Below are positions 9,521 through 25,901 of a DNA stretch of 64,000 nt, piece after piece. Source of the stretch: Dictyostelium discoideum (lineage: Eukaryota). The notes under the pieces were generated by a model, which had not been told where the DNA came from, ran no database searches, and saw only the letters and a program-made list of their open reading frames with translations. Location of the stretch: NCBI GenBank assembly GCA_000004695.1, contig CM000155.2, positions 3,104,001 to 3,168,000 of the forward strand. Reading direction: 5' to 3'. How positions within the stretch are numbered: the first letter of the stretch is position 1; each line of letters begins with the position of its first letter. A program made the position numbers and the translations under genes.

Positions 9521-14191
<4,671 letters not shown>

Positions 14192-14865: not shown

Positions 14866-17800
14866 TTAATTTTTTCTGCTAACTCTTTTTTTCATTTTAA
14901 AAAGGAAAATTCTAAAAGATAATTTTGAATTTGAAGGTAATAAGATTAAAATAATTAAAATTAAAATTATAAAGAAAACTATAGAACCAATTACAATACC
15001 AGCTATTTGAGGTTTTGATAAAGATGATGAAGACGACGATGTGCATATAGAATTATCAGAATTTGAAGAAGCTGGATTTGAATTTAATAATACAGAAAAG
15101 TCTGGATCTAACTCTATATTAATATTATAGAAAGGTATTTGAATAGCGACAAACGATAATTTTTTACTTGAGGTTGTACTATTTAATTTTTCATTCTGAT
15201 TGAAATCTGTTAAAACTTTATTACTAATTGTACGTACTACATTATCAATATTTGCTCTTTTTAAATATTTTGAAAGAAAACTAAATTCACCAACTTGAAG
15301 TTCTAAATAATTTGAATGATCATTTAAACCAAATTGTTCACTTGAACAAATGTCATCAGTTTTTGAAGTTTCAATAAAATTTTTAAATATTAATTCCAAT
15401 GTATTTAAAGATGTTGAGAATGGATAATGATCAATTGATATTGAATATTTTAAACTTGATGGATTTATAGTAAATTTATCACCTGCAAACGTAATTTGAG
15501 TTTCTTTTTCAAACCATTCAGCTATCACTGTTATATTTGATACTTGATTAGCACCTTTTTTAATTTTAGAACTATATGAAAATTTTGTACTTGAAATATT
15601 TTTAAAATCCCAAATATCAAAATAATGAATATTTTCAATTGAATTATTAAAATTAATTTCACGTATTGCAACTATTGAAATTATAGTATTAAGTTTAATA
15701 TCACCATTATTGCCAACAATTGGAATTTCATTTTTAATATCTGGTGATGTTAAATTTGTTATAGGTTGAGGTATTTTAACAATCTCTGATAAACAATCAA
15801 ATCCACTATATGGTGAGATACATTGACATCCAATATTTTCAATACATTTACCTCTATTCAATCCACCACAACTATTTAAACATACTACTTTTGGTGTTGG
15901 TGTTATTAGTGTTGGTATTGATGGTGTTGAAGTAGGTGTTGTGGTTGAAGTTGGTGTTGAGGTTGGTGTTGAAGTTGGTGTTGAATCAGATGAAGAAGTT
16001 GAAGAATCAGGTAAAACAGTGATTTCAACAATATTGGATAGAGTTTGAGTAATTTCATCTTTTATATAAACATATAATTTTTCAGAATTAAATGATTCAA
16101 CTTTATTTATTAAAATAACATTTGAACTGAAAATTAAATTATTTTGAACAAGAGAATTTGAACTATCATTAATAAAAATTTTAGGATCAGAACCAAAACT
16201 ATTACCACTTATTGTTATTAAACCACCACTACTTGAGATTGATGTAAAACTTTCAATAAATGGTGTTTTGGTTTGTATAATTGGTGATATAATACTAGTG
16301 AAACCTAAATTTTCTAAATCAAATGATGAAAAACCACCAAGATTAAAAGAAGTATCAACAATTCCAAATACTGATGCCACAATCATATTACCATTACTAT
16401 CACCACCACCAAATCCATATGGTACTAAACAAGTTGCTGTATAATTTGCTGAAAATATCAAAAGGGAAGTATCCCATTGGAAACCATTTAATTTAGTTTC
16501 ACATTCTATACTTGTTAATTCTAAATCTAATAAATCATTTATGTAATATTCTAAAAATACAACTGGTTTATGAGTGTCATATAATAAACCAAAACTATCG
16601 GTAACTTGAAATTCAAACGATAAATCCCTATTATGTGAATATGAATCAATATTTAGAGTTGATGGTTTAAAAATTGAAAGAGTTGGTTGAGTTGCATCTG
16701 GTGTAAAATCTGGAGTATTAACTTTAAAAGTTAAAAAACTCATACTAGTTGAATCTATACTATATATTGGTGATAATAAATTTACACCTGATTCTTTATT
16801 AAAATTAAAATTATCTTCAATTATTTGAGATTTGTGACCTGAATTATCAATTAAAATTATATTTTCAAATGTAAAAGTTTGTCCTTGAATGGTTGGTTTC
16901 ACAAGGAATTTAATATTATATTGACCTATAAATTTATCACCACTTATTAAATCAAGTTCAGGTGTAAAATAAAATTCTAAAGGAATTGGATCCTTATCAC
17001 CAATAATTCTAAAATATGCAGATTTCAAACCATTAATTCTATCTTCAATTGTAACTGTCCAACCTACCATTAAATCTTTGGTTCCATTACATGTAAATTC
17101 ATTACCATTGACAGGTTCAATCGATTGGAAATAAGATATATTTTTAATAATTGGTGGCATTTCATCACAATCTGTTGAGGTTACACTTAAATTTGCAGCA
17201 TTACCAAATAATGAATAAAAGTAATCCATTGTATAACTAACGCTATCTACTTTAATAATATATGGCAAACTACCAGAACATTTACGAGGTGGAATTACAA
17301 ATTGAATTTTAAAAACATTTTCATTTTTGTCTTTTAAATATTGACCGACTTCAAGATCCATTGGATTAATTAATGAATCTCCATAAATTGGATCTAATAA
17401 ATAAAATGAGATTGGTATATCGTATGCTGAATCAATATAATCGAAATATAAAGTTTGTAAAAATCCATAATCAACATTTACATTTTGTGCTTCAAATTCA
17501 AATTTACTAACTGATAAAACTTGACTTCCACCATTAATACTATTATTAAAAGCATTTATATATGGGATTTCTTTTAAAGGATTTAATGAATAATATGTAT
17601 CATATATTTTGAATTGACCACCTGTAGTCATAATTAAAATTGGTGTTTTTTCAAAAGTAACAATGATAACTTTTTCATAATAACCATCACCTATTGTTCC
17701 ATTGACTAAATCCTTTTGAGTTATAATGTTACCACAATATTTCAACCATGATAAAACACCAGCACCTGCTTTTGAAATGATCCTAACTTGAAGAACTGCT

Positions 17801-19504
17801 CTTTTACCATCACCACCTCTTGGATAATAAATATTCATACTTTCAATAGATGGCAATTCATAAGTTTGTGGTGTGTCAAAAACTTCAAGAGATGTAACAA
17901 CTTTATTTAAATTTGAACTAAAGCTATAATATAATGAACCAATCACTTGAGTCTTTAATACACTCATTTGGTATTGAAATATTTGCATTGTACCTGAAAC
18001 AACACCATAAGGGTATTTAAATTGTCTTAGATTAATACCAACATTTTGTGTACTCTCAAAACCAGTTGAAAATAACATTGATCTTGATATATTACCGTTT
18101 ATTTCCATATTTATAAAATTTGTACTTGTATTTGTTGTACCATCAATAAAAGAAAAAGGTATCGCTATTTTAAATAATTGTAAAATATAAATAATTGTTA
18201 ATACTTTGATATTAAAAAAAAAAAAAAAAACAAAAAAAAAACTTACCATAGTAATCGATTGAAGCAGTTTCAAACGAAATATTATCATAAACTAAAGAAT
18301 GTACTTGATAACTTAATTTTGGTCTAATAAAATCTGACGGTAAAGAAGATGATAATAAAAACTGAGCCCTTGTTTCATTCCCACCTACCATTTTAAACCA
18401 TTGATTATTAAAATCTATAGGTTGATCAATCATTCCATATACAGCTTTTGAATATAAAAATAAATTCGATATTGATTTATCAATTGTATCACATGATGTA
18501 ATTAAACTTGTATCCCAATATGTACTTGATATATAACTACCACCTGCTCTATAATTATTACTTTGAGAACATACATCATTATCATAATCTTTTTTTTTTT
18601 TTTTTTTTATTAGTTTTTTTTTTTTTTTTCATATAAATTTAAAAAATATATTTATTACCTACCTATTAAAGGATTAAATAAATTGAATTCAATATTACTT
18701 AAAGAACCATATGAAATATTAAATAATAAATATGTTGGACTTACTCGAGGTGAGTTTGAAGGATTGAAATCTAATGAAAATCTTGCTAAATAGGTTGTTG
18801 AACTATCAATTAAAAATCCGTCTAAAAACGAGTATGTATATGGAAAAGGTGAATTTGTTGGTTTTAAACTTAACTGTTTTGTAACATTATAAATTTTTAA
18901 ATAAAAATAAATAGTTGATGATGGTGGAGTTGTTGTAATTAAATTTTCTAATACTTGAAAATTTAATGGTGATGTTGGTGGTTCTACACAATTATAGACG
19001 AATAAAGGAATTGCATAATTATTTGATCCATCATATATTGAGGAGAGGCTATATTGGCCGACTGTACAATTTGCATAAATTTCAAAACGACCAAATGTAT
19101 CTATTGATTGTATGAGTTCTGTTTTAAAATAATCAGTTGATAAACCTGAAATTAAAACTGTTGAAATTTGACTACCAAATGATCCAATAAATGTAAATCT
19201 TGGGTAACAATAACCACCTTTTTTATTTTAGTTTTTTTTTTTTTTTTATTTTGGGAAATAATATTAGTAAAAGAAATATAAATAAACGTTGCTATGTTTA
19301 ATTTTGACTTTTTCCCACATAAAAATTTTCAGATAAAAATCTGAATTTCGGCATCGTTTATTTTTTTTTTTTATTTTTAGTTTTCATACTTTCAGCATAA
19401 AAATCACTATTTTTTTTTAATTGAAAGAAATCAACAGAAGACAGTGTAATTACTAATTCTATAAATAATAAATTTAAAAAAATAAATAAAGTCAAAAATT
19501 TCAT
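14866..19504 (-). CDS. Paralog of the 9521-14191 gene. tgr-like type-I membrane glycoprotein of ~1430 aa, five exons, with an extra Thr/Pro/Ser-rich mucin-like linker.
   Basis: ATG at 19504 with signal peptide MKFLTLFIFLNLLFIELVITLSS. Donor GAAA|GTATGA. Exon 2 ~19230-18660, donor GTAGGT. Exon 3 ~18578-18250, shares QWFKMVGGNET with gene 2, donor GTAAGT. Last exon from ~18208 to the stop at 14866. IPT/TIG signature ISSSGGLITISGNSFG. EGF-like module CLNSCGGLNRGKCIENIGCQCISPYSGFDCL. Linker STPTSTPTSTPTSTTTPTSTPS. Confidence 0.6.
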
Positions 19505-20038: not shown

Positions 20039-22283
20039 TTAAAGGAGAGCTTCAAAATTGAAATTTGCATTATCACTAGTATTACAAATTGATTTGAATG
20101 ATACGACTAAATTACCACCATCGAATTTCCAAACCCAATAAGAACTTTGTTTTTCAACAAATTGGAAGACGATTTTACAATTTTGAGTTGCTTCAACGAA
20201 ACCTTCTTTGACCATATCATCATCTTTACATCTTTTAACGATATTTTGACTGATGTAACGAATGATTTCAGCAAAGACATCACCAACACGTGGTTTATTA
20301 TTTTCTTCTAATTTTGGATAAACTTGTTCGATTGAAGATTCATCATAAGTCCAATCATTACCCAAGACTTCTTTAATCTTTTCGAAAGATTCATTGATTT
20401 TCTCTTGATTCTCTCTCAAATTGATTCTAGAGGCTAAAGTGAGTACACCTGGTGATGGTAAAATTTTAATGAAATCAAAGTTTGCATTATCACTAACATT
20501 GCAAATTGATTTGAAGGTGATTACTAAATCATTGTTTTCAAAACTCCAATTCCAATAACCGTTTGCTTTGGCATTGTGACGGAAAACAATCTTTGCATTT
20601 GAAGTTGCTTCGAGGAAACTTTCTAAAACCATATCCTCTTTACAACGTTTAACGATATTATCAGCGACATATTTAATAATCTCTTGGAATAAGTCACCAA
20701 TTCTTTCTTTATTTCTTTCTTCAAGTGCTGGATAAACAGTTTCCAATGATTGCTCATCATAGGACCAATCTACTTTAGTGACCTCTTTAATTCTTTCAAA
20801 AGCGGTATCGAATTTCTCTTGGTTCTCTTTCAAATTGATTTTAGCAGCTAATGAGAAAACACCTGGTACTGGAAGGACTTTAATGAAATCGAAATTGGCA
20901 TTATCAGAGATATTACAAATTGATTTAAAGGTGATGATTAAATTACCACCTTCAAAGGTCCAATTCCAATAACCACTTGCTTTGGCATTATGACGGAAAA
21001 CAATCTTTGCATTTGAAGTTGCTTCAACGAATGCTTCTAAAATTGTATCATTTTTACATTTCTTTTCAATGTTATCAGCAACATATTTGAAAATATCAGA
21101 GAATAAATCACCAATTCTCTCTTTATTTCTTTCTTCAAGTGCTGGATAAATTTGCTCCAATGATTCTTGCTCATATGACCAATCCATGTGGGTGGCTGCT
21201 TTAATTCTTTCGAAAGCGGTATCGAATTTCTCTTGGTTCTCTTTCATATTCAAACGAGCAGCTAATGAGAAAACACCTGGAACTGGGAGAACTTTAATGA
21301 AATCGTAGTTGGCATTATCAGAGATATTACTAATGGATTTGAAAGTAATGATGAGATCACCATTAGCGAATGACCAATTCCAATAGCCTGTGGTTTGTTT
21401 TGGATTATGTCTGAAACTAATTCTACCATTGGCAGTTACATCATTGAAACTTTCTAAAGTCATTTCATCTTTACAACGTTTTTCAATGTTTTGAGCAACG
21501 TATTCTAAAATTTGAGCAAATGTAGTACCAAATTGTTCACGTTGACTTTCATGTTCAAAAGCAGTTGGATAAACAGTTTCCATTGATGCTTCATCAAATG
21601 ACCAATCTCTACTGGTAACTACTTTAATTCTTTCGAATGCAAGTTCAAATCTTTCTTGATTCTTTTTCATATTAAGACGAGTTGGTAAACTATAAGCACC
21701 TTCACTTGGAATCACTTTATATAATTCGAAATTACCAGCTTCAGTAATATTATTACAACCTTTCTTGAATAAAAGATTTAATTGACCACCATTAAATGCA
21801 TACTTCCAATAGGATGAATTCTTGGCATCTTCATTAACAATTAATACAATCTTTTTAGCAGTATTTGCATTAATGATTGATTCTTTAGTTAATTCATCTT
21901 TTGATGCATTTACAATACATTTACTAATATTTGGACATAAATTTTTATAAAATACTTCACCCTTTTTTTAAAAAAAAAAAGAATTGATTAGATAAAAAAT
22001 GAAAATTAAAAAGAAAAAAAAAAAAATTACTTACTAATTGTTTTTTAACATGTTCATCAACTTTATCGAAAATGGCATCCCAATCAAATTCAATAATCCA
22101 TTCTTCACCATTTAAAGCATTTTTGATTTCTTCATGTGCTTTATTTAAGTGTTCTTCATTATCTCTTAATGATTTTCTGAAAAATAAAAAATAAAAAAAT
22201 GAAAAGAGTAAATAATTTGAACTTGATATTTTTTTATTTTTTTTTATTACTGTCTTTTTTTTTTATTTACCTAGCAACAAGGT
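20039..22283 (-). CDS. Protein made of five tandem ~135-aa repeats of an uncharacterised domain (N-terminal helical half, C-terminal beta-rich half ending ...YWNW(T/S)FEGGNLIITFKSICN(I/V)SDNANFDF). Three exons.
   Basis: ATG 22283-22281. Exon 1 (MPLNLVAR) donor GTAAAT at 22260. Exon 2 22176-22035, donor GTAAGT. Exon 3 21961-20039. The track ORF 20039-21715 begins at an internal GTG. The repeats are clear in the translation: LP(V/S)PGV(F/L)SLAA(R/K)(L/I)N(M/L)KENQEKFDTAFERIK... appears four times, plus a more divergent first copy. Confidence 0.6.
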
Positions 22284-22895
22284 TTAAAGGCATTTTAAAA
22301 AATTATATGTTTGTAATATCACAATGGTTTATAAAAAAAAAAAAAAAAAAAAAAAAATTTATATACAAAATTAAAAAAAAAAAAAAACAAAACAAAACAA
22401 AATATCTTTAAAAAACTGCTTTTTTTTTATAAAAATCAAAATATTGGGAAAAAAAAATGAATGAATCAAATCATTTTCCCTAAATTTTTTAGACAGATAT
22501 TTTATAAAAAAAAAAAAAAAAAGTTAGATTCCGGGCTAACAAAAAAATCAAAGAAAATAAAAAATATTTTTTATTTTTTTATAATTTTTTTTTAAAACTC
22601 GCAACACACTTAAGTCGAAAATATCTAAAAAAATTTTAAATATTTGACAAATTATAATAAAAATTTAATTTTTTTGAAACATAATATGACGTCAAATTAA
22701 ATAAATAAATATAAAAAAAAAAAAAACAAAATCCATTTTTAGAATGTCCACCTCGTGAATGAGCTTGAAAATAAAAGTAAAAAAAAAAAAAAAGAGGAGA
22801 CTTACCGACCAGCGCATAAAATTATCCAACCACATCATCAGTTTTTTTTTTTTTTTTAAAAAATTCTCTAAAATTATTTGCATTTTATTTTATTT

Positions 22896-23618
22896 TTATT
22901 TTAAAACTAAATCATTTGAAATGTTTGTAAATTTCGAAGTAATATCCCAAAGTTTTTTAGAAATTTCAATACTATTGAATTGTCTTGGAGTTTCAGTTAA
23001 TACACCAATGTTAAAGTAAGAACCTTTAATACCATTAAGTGATGGATCAGTACCAAGTGCAACTTTTGCACATTCTTTAGAAGCAACTTGAATTGGAGTG
23101 AAAATAAAATTTGGCATCAATGAAAAAGCAACTTTTAAAATACCAGTAAAATCACGTTGTAAACTAGTTTGAACTTTACCAGGATTAATTGAATTTACTA
23201 CTATTTTAGAACCTTTTTCAATTAATTTTCTTTGTAATTCCTTTGTGAATAATAGATTACAACATTTCGAAAGTGAATAATCTTTTAATTGATTATAGTT
23301 TGCCTCTGATTCAACATTTATTTTATCATTTAAAATCAATGATAAATCGGCATCTTTAAATCTATCAGATGTTAAAACTAAAATTCTTGGATTTTCACTT
23401 TTTTCCAAATTTTTTAATAATAAATTTGTTAATAAAAATGGACCAAAATGATTAGTAGCAATTTGAAATGAATAACCATCTTGAGTTATTGAAAATGGTG
23501 GACACATAACACCTGCATTATTAATTAATAAATCTAATGGTAAATTTAATTTATTAAATTCATTTACAAATGATTTTACTGACTATTTTTTTTTTTTTTT
23601 AAAAAAAATAATTTATTA

Positions 23619-24845: not shown

Positions 24846-25901
24846 TTATTCTTTTGAATTTAATATTGTTAAAATTTCATCGTCAGATAATGGTTGTAAA
24901 TTACGTTCATTTCTATTGAGTATAATTTCATTTTTCCAATAGTTATGATGATCATATTCATGATCTGAGGCACCAGTGAATTCTTTTTCTAAATCATTTG
25001 GCTCAAAGAATTGGGAGAAAACTTTAATTTTTTGTTTTTCACCATTTGCGAAAACGATCTTTTTATAGGTAACTTTATTGATGAATGGTGAGATGGTAGT
25101 CCAGAAAACATTGAAAATGAAGGGAGTTTCCACTAAAAAGGCATTACCGAGACGCTCTGGATAATGGTCGGATAAAATTTGAAGAACATACTTACTAACA
25201 GACATTGGTGGTGAATTTCTAATTGAATAGTTTTTAAAGTCGATTAACAATACAATTTGTTCGTGGCCACGTGTTTTATCCATTAATGATATTGCTCTTT
25301 CAATGTTGTAAACCATTAATCTGATTTGGTTATCATGGTTTTTAGTATTCTCTCTCACTGGTCTAAGATAGATAACACTTCTGCCATGTGATTTACCAAA
25401 TACGTATTGTTTACCTGAGGATGCTTCATAGGATAATGATTCGGCTGTAATCTCGTATGGCTTATATTTGCTTCTCCATTCCAATGTATTCTTTAGTAGA
25501 TTGAATGATAAAGAGAGATCATAATCTCTTGCTCTTAAATATCTTAATAATAACATATCACCACCATCCTCTAACCATTCTCTCTCCTTTTCTGATATCT
25601 CTCCAAATCCTGTGTTTGTTGATTTTTCATTACCATCTTTCCATACTTTTTCTTTAAATTGTTTGAAAATATTAATTTGTTTTTCACTTAAATTTTTAAA
25701 TGGGTTAAATTCACCACCATCTTCAAATTTTGTATTATTATATATTTCATTATCTTCACCTGTTACTGATGATGCACTATTTGTATTACTATCTGTTAAA
25801 TCTGAAGTTGAAATATCTTGTTCACTTTTTGTTGTAGTTGTTGTGGTTGTGGTTGTTGCAGTGGTTTCTTCATTTTTATTTTTTTTATCTTTTTTTCCCA
25901 T
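24846..25901 (-). CDS. Sec14-like / CRAL-TRIO domain phosphatidylinositol-transfer-type protein (351 aa), single exon.
   Basis: ATG 25901. CRAL-TRIO N-terminal region LLLRYLRARDYDLSLSFNLLKNTLEWR. Lipid-binding core GRSVIYLRPVREN...LLIDFKNYS...HYPERLGNAFLVETPFIFNVFW. Confidence 0.75.
   Translation of the reverse strand: MGKKDKKNKNEETTATTTTTTTTTKSEQDISTSDLTDSNTNSASSVTGEDNEIYNNTKFEDGGEFNPFKNLSEKQINIFKQFKEKVWKDGNEKSTNTGFGEISEKEREWLEDGGDMLLLRYLRARDYDLSLSFNLLKNTLEWRSKYKPYEITAESLSYEASSGKQYVFGKSHGRSVIYLRPVRENTKNHDNQIRLMVYNIERAISLMDKTRGHEQIVLLIDFKNYSIRNSPPMSVSKYVLQILSDHYPERLGNAFLVETPFIFNVFWTTISPFINKVTYKKIVFANGEKQKIKVFSQFFEPNDLEKEFTGASDHEYDHHNYWKNEIILNRNERNLQPLSDDEILTILNSKE

What the first reader, a model, noticed from the sequence alone, without database searches (positions are those of the whole stretch)
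20039..22283. Gene encoding five tandem ~135-aa repeats of an unrecognised domain
The whole protein is built of repeats with a conserved pattern: LPVPGVFSLAARLN-KENQEKFDTAFERIK...DWSY(D/E)E.S.E..YP..EE(R/H)N.ER.G..F..I.KYVA.NI.K.CK.D....F.EAT.N.KIVF.HN.K..GYWNWSF..G.L.ITFKSICN.SDNANFDF(I/E). Each unit looks like a helical half followed by a beta half, with paired conserved Trp (YWNW). The first unit is split over three exons and more divergent. I cannot place this domain in a known family. A rigid five-module array suggests a lectin/ligand-binding or scaffolding role.
Basis: partly seen in the sequence, partly recalled or inferred. Interest (0 to 1): 0.5.

Follow-up and report, generated by a model that had tools for sequence, protein, structure and literature searches.

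The report
Five-repeat protein, undescribed protist domain
This is a real, highly expressed Dictyostelium gene (DDB_G0293724) whose whole 695-residue protein is five tandem copies of a ~138-residue domain that matches no described family or solved structure, and that belongs to a sizeable, unnamed family in amoeboid protists.

Summary
On the minus strand, three exons (22293-22271, 22176-22035, 21961-20039) encode a 695-aa protein identical to D. discoideum AX4 DDB_G0293724 (Q54BI8, "hypothetical"). It consists of five tandem units of 138-141 aa. R2-R5 are 45-78% identical to each other, and R1 is 26-35% identical to the rest.

A profile search found 453 cluster representatives with 1-5 units each. 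All named ones are uncharacterised eukaryotic proteins (Dictyostelia, Echinostelium, Physarum, Percolomonas). A few carry N-terminal PH, PX or SAM domains.

The protein has no signal peptide, no transmembrane segment and no conserved catalytic-type residue. Published proteomics shows it is very abundant in growing cells and falls about 200-350-fold by the fruiting-body stage.

Best reading: a soluble, non-enzymatic, multivalent binding or scaffold protein of feeding amoebae, possibly near membranes or the cortex. This function is inferred, not shown. The lectin idea has no support.

The parts
22271..22293 (-). Exon 1 (ATG at 22293-22291; codons 1-7 plus 2 nt)
   Evidence: Splice reconstruction gives a 695-aa ORF identical to XP_629041.1
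22177..22270 (-). Intron 1, 94 nt, GTAAAT...TTTCAG
22035..22176 (-). Exon 2 (through codon 55)
21962..22034 (-). Intron 2, 73 nt, GTAAGT...AAAAAG
20039..21961 (-). Exon 3 (codons 56-695 plus stop at 20039-20041)
21713..22293 (-). Repeat unit R1 (aa 1-138; spans both introns). Divergent 'N-terminal type'. Closest to unit 1 of the 2-unit paralog DDB_G0284999 (48%)
21290..21712 (-). Repeat unit R2 (aa 139-279)
   Evidence: dN/dS 0.06 between strains
20876..21289 (-). Repeat unit R3 (aa 280-417)
20462..20875 (-). Repeat unit R4 (aa 418-555). This is the unit modelled alone: pLDDT 87.5, pTM 0.81
20042..20461 (-). Repeat unit R5 (aa 556-695). 'C-terminal type', closest to unit 2 of DDB_G0284999 (58%)

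Best explanation
DDB_G0293724 encodes a soluble cytosolic protein of 80 kDa and pI 5.2. It is nothing but five tandem copies of a ~138-residue alpha+beta module that has not been described as a family. The module has five to six helices, then a three-stranded antiparallel meander and a short helix. Short Pro/Gly linkers (KVLPVPGV) join the units into an ordered array.

I propose that the module is a non-catalytic binding unit. The five-unit protein would then act as a multivalent scaffold or cross-linker in growing, feeding amoebae, most likely at or near membranes or the cell cortex. It is switched off as cells starve and develop.

Shown:
- the gene model and the five units
- purifying selection on every unit
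- lack of any known-family match
- confident predicted structure
- family distribution and fusions
- no signal peptide or TM segment
- abundant protein in vegetative cells that declines through development

Inferred:
- the non-enzymatic nature (from conservation)
- the rigidity of the array (from pTM and pLDDT only)
- the membrane/cortex connection (from PH/PX/SAM/beta-trefoil fusions in distant relatives)
- the scaffold mechanism itself
For: Gene and repeats.

Unit positions are orthologous from Dictyostelium to Heterostelium (R1 to R1, R2 to R2, and so on). dN/dS is 0.07 between strains and 0.21 between paralogs, with every unit constrained.

Structure: one unit has pLDDT 87.5 and pTM 0.81. 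R2-R5 has pLDDT 93, pTM 0.69 and no disordered linkers.

Not an obvious enzyme. Across 254 non-redundant units, the positions conserved at 74% or more are Gly34, Gly60, Gly115, Asn126, Leu9, Asp80, Ile96 and Tyr107. No His or Ser column exceeds 40%, and the only Cys column (78) is 48%. There is no HExxH, P-loop or CxxC motif.

Cytosolic. The N-terminus is hydrophilic and the maximum 19-residue Kyte-Doolittle value is 1.39. The paralog Q54G31 was recovered from whole-cell extracts in a nucleocytoplasmic O-fucose pulldown (PMC11507795).

Membrane/cortex hint. Pfam matches above gathering score sit N-terminal to the units in relatives: PH in P0050 (Percolomonas), P0069 and P0123; PX in P0144; SAM in P0171. 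A beta-trefoil (FRG1/fascin-like, sub-threshold) occurs in P0155 and P0094.

Abundance and timing. LFQ intensity is 1.43e9/1.56e9 in vegetative cells. That equals acetyl-CoA carboxylase and exceeds RPL10A (3.4e8) and UBA1 (4.8e8). It falls to 4.1e6/8.5e6 in fruiting bodies. The protein is in cluster 1 of PMC12821622, 'abundant in vegetative cells, progressive decline'.
Against: - No direct evidence exists for any ligand, partner or localisation.
- PH/PX/SAM fusions occur in only 5 of about 150 listed representatives. They are in distant lineages, on short metagenome or transcriptome contigs.
- Very high abundance is unusual for a signalling scaffold. It fits a structural, buffering or carrier role equally well.
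- PAE was not available, so rigidity rests on pTM alone.
- The alignment for the four-unit model had only 12 rows.
- Absence of conserved catalytic-type residues does not exclude an unusual activity.
Confidence: 0.4

Rival explanations
1. Each unit is a small-molecule or lipid-binding (carrier, transfer or buffer) module. The protein would be an abundant multi-site carrier in growing cells. The PH/PX-fused relatives would deliver the same cargo-binding module to phosphoinositide-marked membranes, as PH-START or PH-ORD lipid-transfer proteins do.
For: - PH and PX domains lie N-terminal to the units in relatives.
- The fold is alpha+beta.
- The protein is very abundant in vegetative cells. It clusters with proteins that PMC12821622 describes as rich in lipid catabolism and sterol synthesis enzymes.
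Against: - The unit is small (138 aa).
- The best-conserved side chains are polar or turn residues, not a hydrophobic cavity lining.
- Five tandem copies is not a usual lipid-transfer architecture.
- No cavity analysis was possible because model coordinates are not exposed.
Confidence: 0.2
2. It is a cytosolic lectin or glycan-binding array. It would be comparable in lifestyle to the discoidins.
For: It is multivalent and tandem. Dictyostelium does have abundant cytosolic lectins (general knowledge). Two relatives carry a beta-trefoil, a fold that is often a lectin.
Against: - No signal peptide or TM segment.
- Mostly helical, with only a three-stranded sheet.
- Expression is highest in growth and declines in development.
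Confidence: 0.05
3. The unit is a diverged or degenerate catalytic domain, related either to the HECT C-lobe or to zincin-like (SprT/Wss1/MATCAP-type) proteases.
For: - A Cys at unit position 78 is present in 48% of units.
Against: - Foldseek E-values are all 0.08 or higher.
- No HExxH motif in any of 206 held family sequences.
- Cys78 is replaced by Leu, Ala or Val in many units.
- No HECT N-lobe or any other Pfam domain in the protein.
Confidence: 0.05
4. It is a growth-phase housekeeping factor unrelated to membranes, for example a proteostasis or nucleic-acid/ribosome-associated binding protein. It would be switched off with the translation apparatus on starvation.
For: - The abundance profile parallels ribosomal and rRNA-maturation proteins of cluster 1.
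- The paralog was captured together with nuclear and nucleocytoplasmic proteins.
- Three relatives carry a Rad52-like N-terminal fragment plus an E/R/K-rich coiled coil.
Against: - The protein is acidic (pI 5.2), which argues against general nucleic-acid binding.
- The PH/PX fusions point elsewhere.
- The O-Fuc enrichment of the paralog is marginal (5.8-fold, p = 0.025, one of four conditions).
Confidence: 0.1

Closest known systems
HECT E3 ligase C-lobe (e.g. UBR5 3pt3_B, HUWE1 6fyh_A)
   Different: The score is in the grey zone, identity is 9-12%, and only about 58% of the unit is covered. Foldseek does not find it. There is no N-lobe and no invariant Cys (48% at position 78). The tandem arrangement is unknown for C-lobes. 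I treat this as fold-level resemblance at most.
Rod or scaffold proteins built from tandem globular modules (e.g. Dictyostelium filamin/ABP120 Ig-like rod repeats, spectrin repeats). This comparison is from general knowledge.
   Same: The protein consists solely of tandem ~100-140-residue modules joined by very short linkers. The array is predicted to be ordered (pTM 0.69). It is cytosolic and abundant.
   Different: The module is unrelated in sequence and fold (no Pfam Filamin or Spectrin hit). There is no actin-binding or dimerisation domain attached. The working resemblance is untested.
PH- or PX-anchored modular proteins (sorting-nexin-like, PH-lipid-transfer proteins)
   Same: Distant family members have exactly this layout: PH or PX at the N-terminus followed by 1-5 of these units.
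   Different: The window's protein has no PH or PX. The attached module is not BAR, START, ORD or any other known effector domain.
Glypican (PF01153), the label that automated pipelines attach
   Same: The whole-protein hmmscan score of 30.7 bits exceeds the Pfam gathering score of 26.4. PF01153 is precomputed for orthologues.
   Different: The score is the sum of weak per-unit matches (13-16 bits) to only about 60 of 555 profile positions. There is no signal peptide, GPI signal or 14-Cys pattern. It is a false positive.

Membership tests
Unnamed 'DDB_G0293724-type' ~138-aa repeat family (defined here) | Match of each unit to the family profile: consensus L.L..RKN..DNE...L..I..ATG ... R.GE...YL..LA..IEK.CKDDM.KEAF.EA...KI.F..D.K...Y....F.DG.L ... 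N....G.D.E..L | tested here: met
   Five units at 1e-58 to 1e-77. The profile finds 453 cluster representatives at E<=1e-3 and 255 at E<=1e-10.
Unnamed 'DDB_G0293724-type' ~138-aa repeat family (defined here) | Common predicted fold: helices, then a three-stranded meander and a short helix | tested here: met
   The same secondary-structure order appears in the single-unit model and in each of R2-R5. Distant members were not modelled.
Glypican (PF01153) | Match along the ~555-position glypican profile | tested here: not met
   Only profile positions 86-146 are matched, at 13-16 bits per unit.
Glypican (PF01153) | Secretory signal peptide, C-terminal GPI signal and a conserved 14-Cys pattern (general knowledge of the family) | tested here: not met
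   Hydrophilic N-terminus, maximum KD19 of 1.39, 11 Cys in total with 1-3 per unit.
HECT domain C-lobe | Strong structural superposition | tested here: not met
HECT domain C-lobe | Invariant catalytic Cys, preceded by a HECT N-lobe | tested here: not met
   The only Cys-rich column is 48% Cys. There is no HECT Pfam hit and no non-repeat sequence in the protein. Structural equivalence of Cys78 to the catalytic Cys was not examined.
Zincin-like metalloproteases (SprT/Wss1, MATCAP, M1 etc.) | HExxH (or HxxEH) zinc-binding motif | tested here: not met
Lectin families (discoidin/F5_F8_C, ricin-B, bulb-type, H-type, and others) | Profile or fold match to a carbohydrate-binding domain | tested here: not met
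Protein kinase-related (the label given to paralog Q54G31 in PMC11507795, Table 2) | Pkinase-type catalytic domain | tested here: not met
   No Pkinase or PK_Tyr_Ser-Thr hit at E<=1. The precomputed Pfam list for the paralog cluster (P0003) has no kinase family.

The most novel reading that the evidence does not exclude
The ~138-residue unit is a new fold. It defines a previously unrecognised, widespread family of amoeboid protists (Amoebozoa, Heterolobosea and many unidentified soil eukaryotes). The family would function as a multivalent membrane- or cortex-associated module. In some lineages it is tethered by PH or PX domains. In Dictyostelium it is expanded to a five-unit rod that is among the abundant proteins of the feeding amoeba. 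This would make it an unstudied structural component of the macropinocytic/phagocytic cell.
Probability: 0.25. Interest if true: 0.65.

Novelty: new variant of a known kind. Interest (0 to 1): 0.42.

Why it matters
Dictyostelium is a main model for macropinocytosis, phagocytosis and cell motility. Yet one of its abundant growth-phase proteins, together with two paralogs, has no name, no domain annotation and no structural relative.

Defining the unit gives an unannotated family of at least 453 sequence clusters a handle: boundaries, a profile, a confident model and fusion partners. It also corrects two annotation errors, a false 'Glypican' call and spurious 4-unit gene models. It yields a cheap, testable hypothesis, because the three D. 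discoideum genes can be knocked out and tagged.

If the module proves to be a new membrane or cortex-binding fold, it would add a lineage-specific component to the feeding machinery of amoebae. If not, it remains a well-delimited orphan domain suitable for a Pfam entry.

Tried and rejected
Family and fold searches that found nothing real:
- Pfam on the whole protein, on one unit and on 26 diverse units gave only scattered sub-threshold hits, plus the summed Glypican artefact.
- NCBIfam gave nothing.
- PDB sequence search with the protein and with the unit profile gave nothing below E 0.046.
- Foldseek against PDB and BFVD gave no hit at E<=0.001.

Searches that could not be run or were limited:
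- Foldseek against AFDB50 was not installed.
I modelled one unit and R2-R5 from the window ORF instead.
- The search for related loci on viral and prokaryotic genome collections could not be run, because no 7-10-column stretch is conserved enough. Absence from viruses and prokaryotes is therefore not shown. All contexts I could inspect are eukaryotic (SH2-kinase, Arm, split RRM genes).
- Word-indexed homolog searches with profiles recovered few extra named proteins, all 'hypothetical'.

Literature:
- The three gene and UniProt identifiers occur only in two papers' text.
- Supplements were not held for the Leep1, spatial-proteome and M. marinum papers.
- The identifiers were absent from the supplements of PMC6830349.

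Ideas rejected:
- 'Four-unit alleles' as natural copy-number variation. These are annotation artefacts.
- Motifs HExxH, P-loop, EF-hand-like and CxxC are all absent.

Full report
**1. What is there**

The region is AT-rich, intron-bearing DNA with a long minus-strand ORF. Joining three exons across two GT..AG introns of 94 and 73 nt gives a 2088-nt CDS and a 695-aa protein. The exons are 22293-22271, 22176-22035 and 21961-20039. An exact-sequence look-up shows this protein is XP_629041.1 / EAL60674.1 / Q54BI8, 'hypothetical protein DDB_G0293724' of Dictyostelium discoideum AX4, on a 3.60-Mb record. The gene model is therefore the reference one.

**2. The repeats are real**

- The protein divides into five units: aa 1-138, 139-279, 280-417, 418-555 and 556-695. 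There is no other sequence.
- Pairwise identity is 78% for R3/R4, 45-61% among R2-R5, and 26-35% for R1 against the rest.
- An HMM of the five units scores each at 1e-58 to 1e-77. It also finds five units in orthologues and three in independent metagenome proteins at 1e-10 to 1e-18.
- At the DNA level, Tandem Repeats Finder reports a 414-bp period over 20399-21362.

**3. The architecture is old and constrained**

- In D. firmibasis, D. purpureum and Heterostelium album, and in the D. discoideum paralog DDB_G0290465, unit i is most similar to unit i for R1 and R2, and mostly so for R3-R5. R3 and R4 are partly interchangeable. The five-unit layout therefore predates the divergence of these dictyostelids.
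- A third D. discoideum gene, DDB_G0284999 (277 aa), has two units. The first resembles R1 (48%) and the second resembles R5/R4 (58/57%). This suggests the five-unit proteins arose by internal amplification of the second-type unit.
- Nei-Gojobori dN/dS over exon 3 is 0.07 against another D. discoideum strain and 0.21 against the paralog. Every unit is constrained.

**4. No described family fits**

- Pfam (2025 copy) gives no genuine hit for the protein, for one unit, or for 26 diverse units.
- The one formally 'passing' hit is Glypican (30.7 bits against a gathering score of 26.4). It is the sum of 13-16-bit matches of each unit to about 60 of 555 profile positions. The protein has no signal peptide, TM segment or glypican Cys pattern.
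- NCBIfam gives nothing.
- PDB sequence searches with the protein and with a 29-sequence unit profile give nothing better than E = 0.046.

**5. Predicted structure**

- One unit (R4), modelled with an alignment of 29 units, gives pLDDT 87.5 and pTM 0.81. It has helices at 9-17, 19-33, 41-50, 53-56, 59-77 and 81-90, strands at 95-100, 108-113 and 116-121, and a helix at 127-132.
- R2-R5 (558 aa, 12-row alignment) gives pLDDT 93.0 and pTM 0.69. The same elements recur in every unit, and the linkers have pLDDT of 87 or above.
- A pTM of 0.69 for four equal domains is higher than expected if their mutual arrangement were undetermined. I therefore infer an ordered array. PAE was not available to confirm this.
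- Foldseek against PDB and BFVD gives nothing at E<=0.001. Zincin-like proteins (SprT/Wss1, MATCAP, GtgA, M1) recur among the weak hits. However, no HExxH motif occurs in any of 206 family sequences held.
- AFDB50 could not be searched.

**6. A sizeable unnamed family**

- The unit profile, scored against 1.84 billion cluster representatives, finds 453 proteins at E<=1e-3, 255 at E<=1e-10 and 72 at E<=1e-30.
- Among the 175 sequences held at that point, units per protein were 1 (27), 2 (84), 3 (32), 4 (12) and 5 (20). Single-unit proteins of 134-150 aa start and end exactly at the unit boundaries. This confirms the domain limits.
- Every member that carries a name is 'hypothetical' or 'uncharacterized'. 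The organisms are:
  - Dictyostelia: Dictyostelium, Polysphondylium, Heterostelium, Tieghemostelium, Cavenderia and Acytostelium
  - the myxogastrids Echinostelium and Physarum
  - the heterolobosean Percolomonas
- The many short JGI/Logan contigs look like eukaryotic transcripts. The longer contigs carry eukaryotic neighbours, including an SH2-kinase, Arm-repeat genes and an intron-split RRM gene.
- Family-wide, the positions conserved at 74% or more are Gly34, Gly60, Gly115, Asn126, Leu9, Asp80, Ile96 and Tyr107. The polar motifs RKN..DNE (12-19) and KDD..KEA (79-86) are moderately conserved. The only Cys column is 48%, and the dictyostelid 'YWNW' Trp residues are not conserved.

**7. Fusions**

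Most members are units only. Exceptions with Pfam hits above gathering score are:
- PH + 5 units (P0050, Percolomonas) and PH + 3 units (P0069, P0123)
- PX + 1 unit (P0144)
- SAM + 2 units (P0171)

Two proteins have an N-terminal beta-trefoil followed by a Pro/Gln-rich linker. The trefoil scores FRG1 24.7 bits against a cutoff of 27, a designed Symfoil at E 0.0035, and fascin at about 0.08. Three have a Rad52-like fragment plus an E/R/K-rich coiled coil. These fusions are few and lie in distant lineages. They are the only context-type evidence available, and they point to phosphoinositide-marked membranes or the cortex.

**8. The protein is made, and when**

Stage-resolved label-free proteomics (PMC12821622, supplement) gives the following intensities for Q54BI8 in two replicates:

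| Stage | Replicate 1 | Replicate 2 |
|---|---|---|
| Vegetative | 1.43e9 | 1.56e9 |
| Aggregation | 6.8e8 | 7.8e8 |
| Mound | 2.2e8 | 1.9e8 |
| Culmination | 8.4e7 | 1.1e8 |
| Fruiting body | 4.1e6 | 8.5e6 |

- The vegetative value equals that of acetyl-CoA carboxylase. It exceeds RPL10A (3.4e8), UBA1 (4.8e8) and talin B (1.7e8) in the same table.
- The authors place the protein in cluster 1, 'abundant in vegetative cells ... decline is progressive'.
- The paralog Q54G31 is about 6-fold less abundant, with a milder decline.
- The 2-unit DDB_G0284999 is biphasic, peaking in vegetative cells and again at culmination.
- Q54G31 was 5.8-fold enriched (p = 0.025) in one anti-O-Fuc(Thr) pulldown from vegetative extracts (PMC11507795).
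- DDB_G0284999 names a cluster of early Mycobacterium marinum infection-responsive genes (bioRxiv 10.64898/2026.09.10.750649).

**9. Mechanism**

Best-supported reading, confidence about 0.4. This is a soluble, non-catalytic protein whose five ordered copies of a new alpha+beta binding module give it multivalency. It would act as a scaffold or cross-linker of the feeding amoeba, plausibly membrane- or cortex-proximal, and is down-regulated on starvation.
- Shown: the anatomy, selective constraint, lack of known-family membership, cytosolic character, and abundance and timing.
- Inferred: non-enzymatic nature, rigidity, membrane/cortex link, and multivalent binding.

Rivals:
- Lipid or small-molecule carrier (0.2). 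It fits the PH/PX fusions and the abundance, but no known carrier fold matches.
- Growth-phase housekeeping binder (0.1).
- Lectin (0.05).
- Degenerate HECT-C-lobe or zincin-like catalytic domain (0.05).

**10. Comparison and novelty**

The gene is in the reference annotation, but only as 'hypothetical'. The domain has no Pfam entry in the 2025 copy searched and no solved or clearly related structure. What is familiar is the kind of architecture: a protein made solely of tandem globular modules. What is new is the module itself and its family. I therefore rate it 'new variant of a known kind', with a 0.25 chance that it is a genuinely new fold with a membrane/cortex role. Interest is moderate. 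It would not overturn anything, but it is a well-delimited and experimentally tractable unknown in a major model organism.

Noticed in passing
L001:3001-5268 and L002:3001-5296 (proteins P0005, P0006): New NCBI annotations of other D. discoideum strains give 554-aa 'four-unit' versions of this gene and of its paralog. In the orthologue (P0005), the missing unit R2 is present in the DNA as part of an uninterrupted 642-codon ORF. The gene model has removed it as a spurious in-frame 423-nt GT..AG 'intron' (GAAG|GTGCTT ... CCAG|GTGTTT). R2 is under purifying selection (dN/dS 0.06). For the paralog (P0006/L002), the locus likewise holds an uninterrupted ORF long enough for all five units, but its junction was not examined. 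These are annotation artefacts, not copy-number alleles.
   Followed up: yes
window 20039-22293 (-): Pfam Glypican (PF01153) passes its whole-sequence gathering score (30.7 against 26.4 bits) only by summing weak matches of the repeated units to profile positions 86-146. It is already stored as a precomputed Pfam hit for orthologues. It is a repeat-driven false positive.
   Followed up: yes
window 9521-12826 (-) and 14866-18288 (-): Two large tandem paralogous ORFs (1101 and 1140 aa) with a C-terminal TM segment. Both carry DUF7035, DUF7034, DUF7949 and the ComC supersandwich domain; the first also has DUF7743. They appear to be a local duplication of ComC-like surface glycoprotein genes. An ORF between them (13315-13839, 174 aa, ending in a poly-Lys run) has no Pfam hit. 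It may be an upstream exon or a fragment.
   Followed up: partly
window 22896-23507 (-) and 24846-25901 (-): The upstream neighbours are a short-chain dehydrogenase (adh_short; the ORF is only part of the gene) and a CRAL-TRIO (Sec14-like) lipid-binding protein. The same gene order is found in another D. discoideum strain (L001).
   Followed up: partly
paralog DDB_G0284999 (P0181, not in the window): The two-unit paralog has a biphasic protein profile: 3.9e7 in vegetative cells, about 100-fold lower at aggregation and mound, and 2.5e7 at culmination. It also names a cluster of early Mycobacterium marinum infection-responsive genes in a 2026 preprint.
   Followed up: partly
paralog DDB_G0290465 (Q54G31, not in the window): It is listed as 'ser/thr kinase related' in Table 2 of PMC11507795 (O-fucose pulldown). 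The paralog's own sequence was not scanned here. The window's protein, about 76% identical to it, has no kinase hit, and the precomputed Pfam list for the paralog's cluster names no kinase family. I found no support for that label.
   Followed up: partly
P0138, P0149, P0160 (metagenome relatives; L010:4276-6552): Three GC-rich relatives share an N-terminal Rad52/22-like fragment (26.5 bits in P0138), a long E/R/K-rich coiled coil and an Ala/Pro-rich linker ahead of 2-3 units. The contig of P0138 is eukaryotic (Arm and split RRM genes as neighbours), despite a JGI auto-name of 'FlhF'.
   Followed up: partly
P0009-P0016 (L003-L007): A tight group of 434-aa three-unit proteins recurs on full-length, transcript-like ~1.4-kb contigs in several JGI and SRA samples. 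The source organism is unidentified.
   Followed up: no
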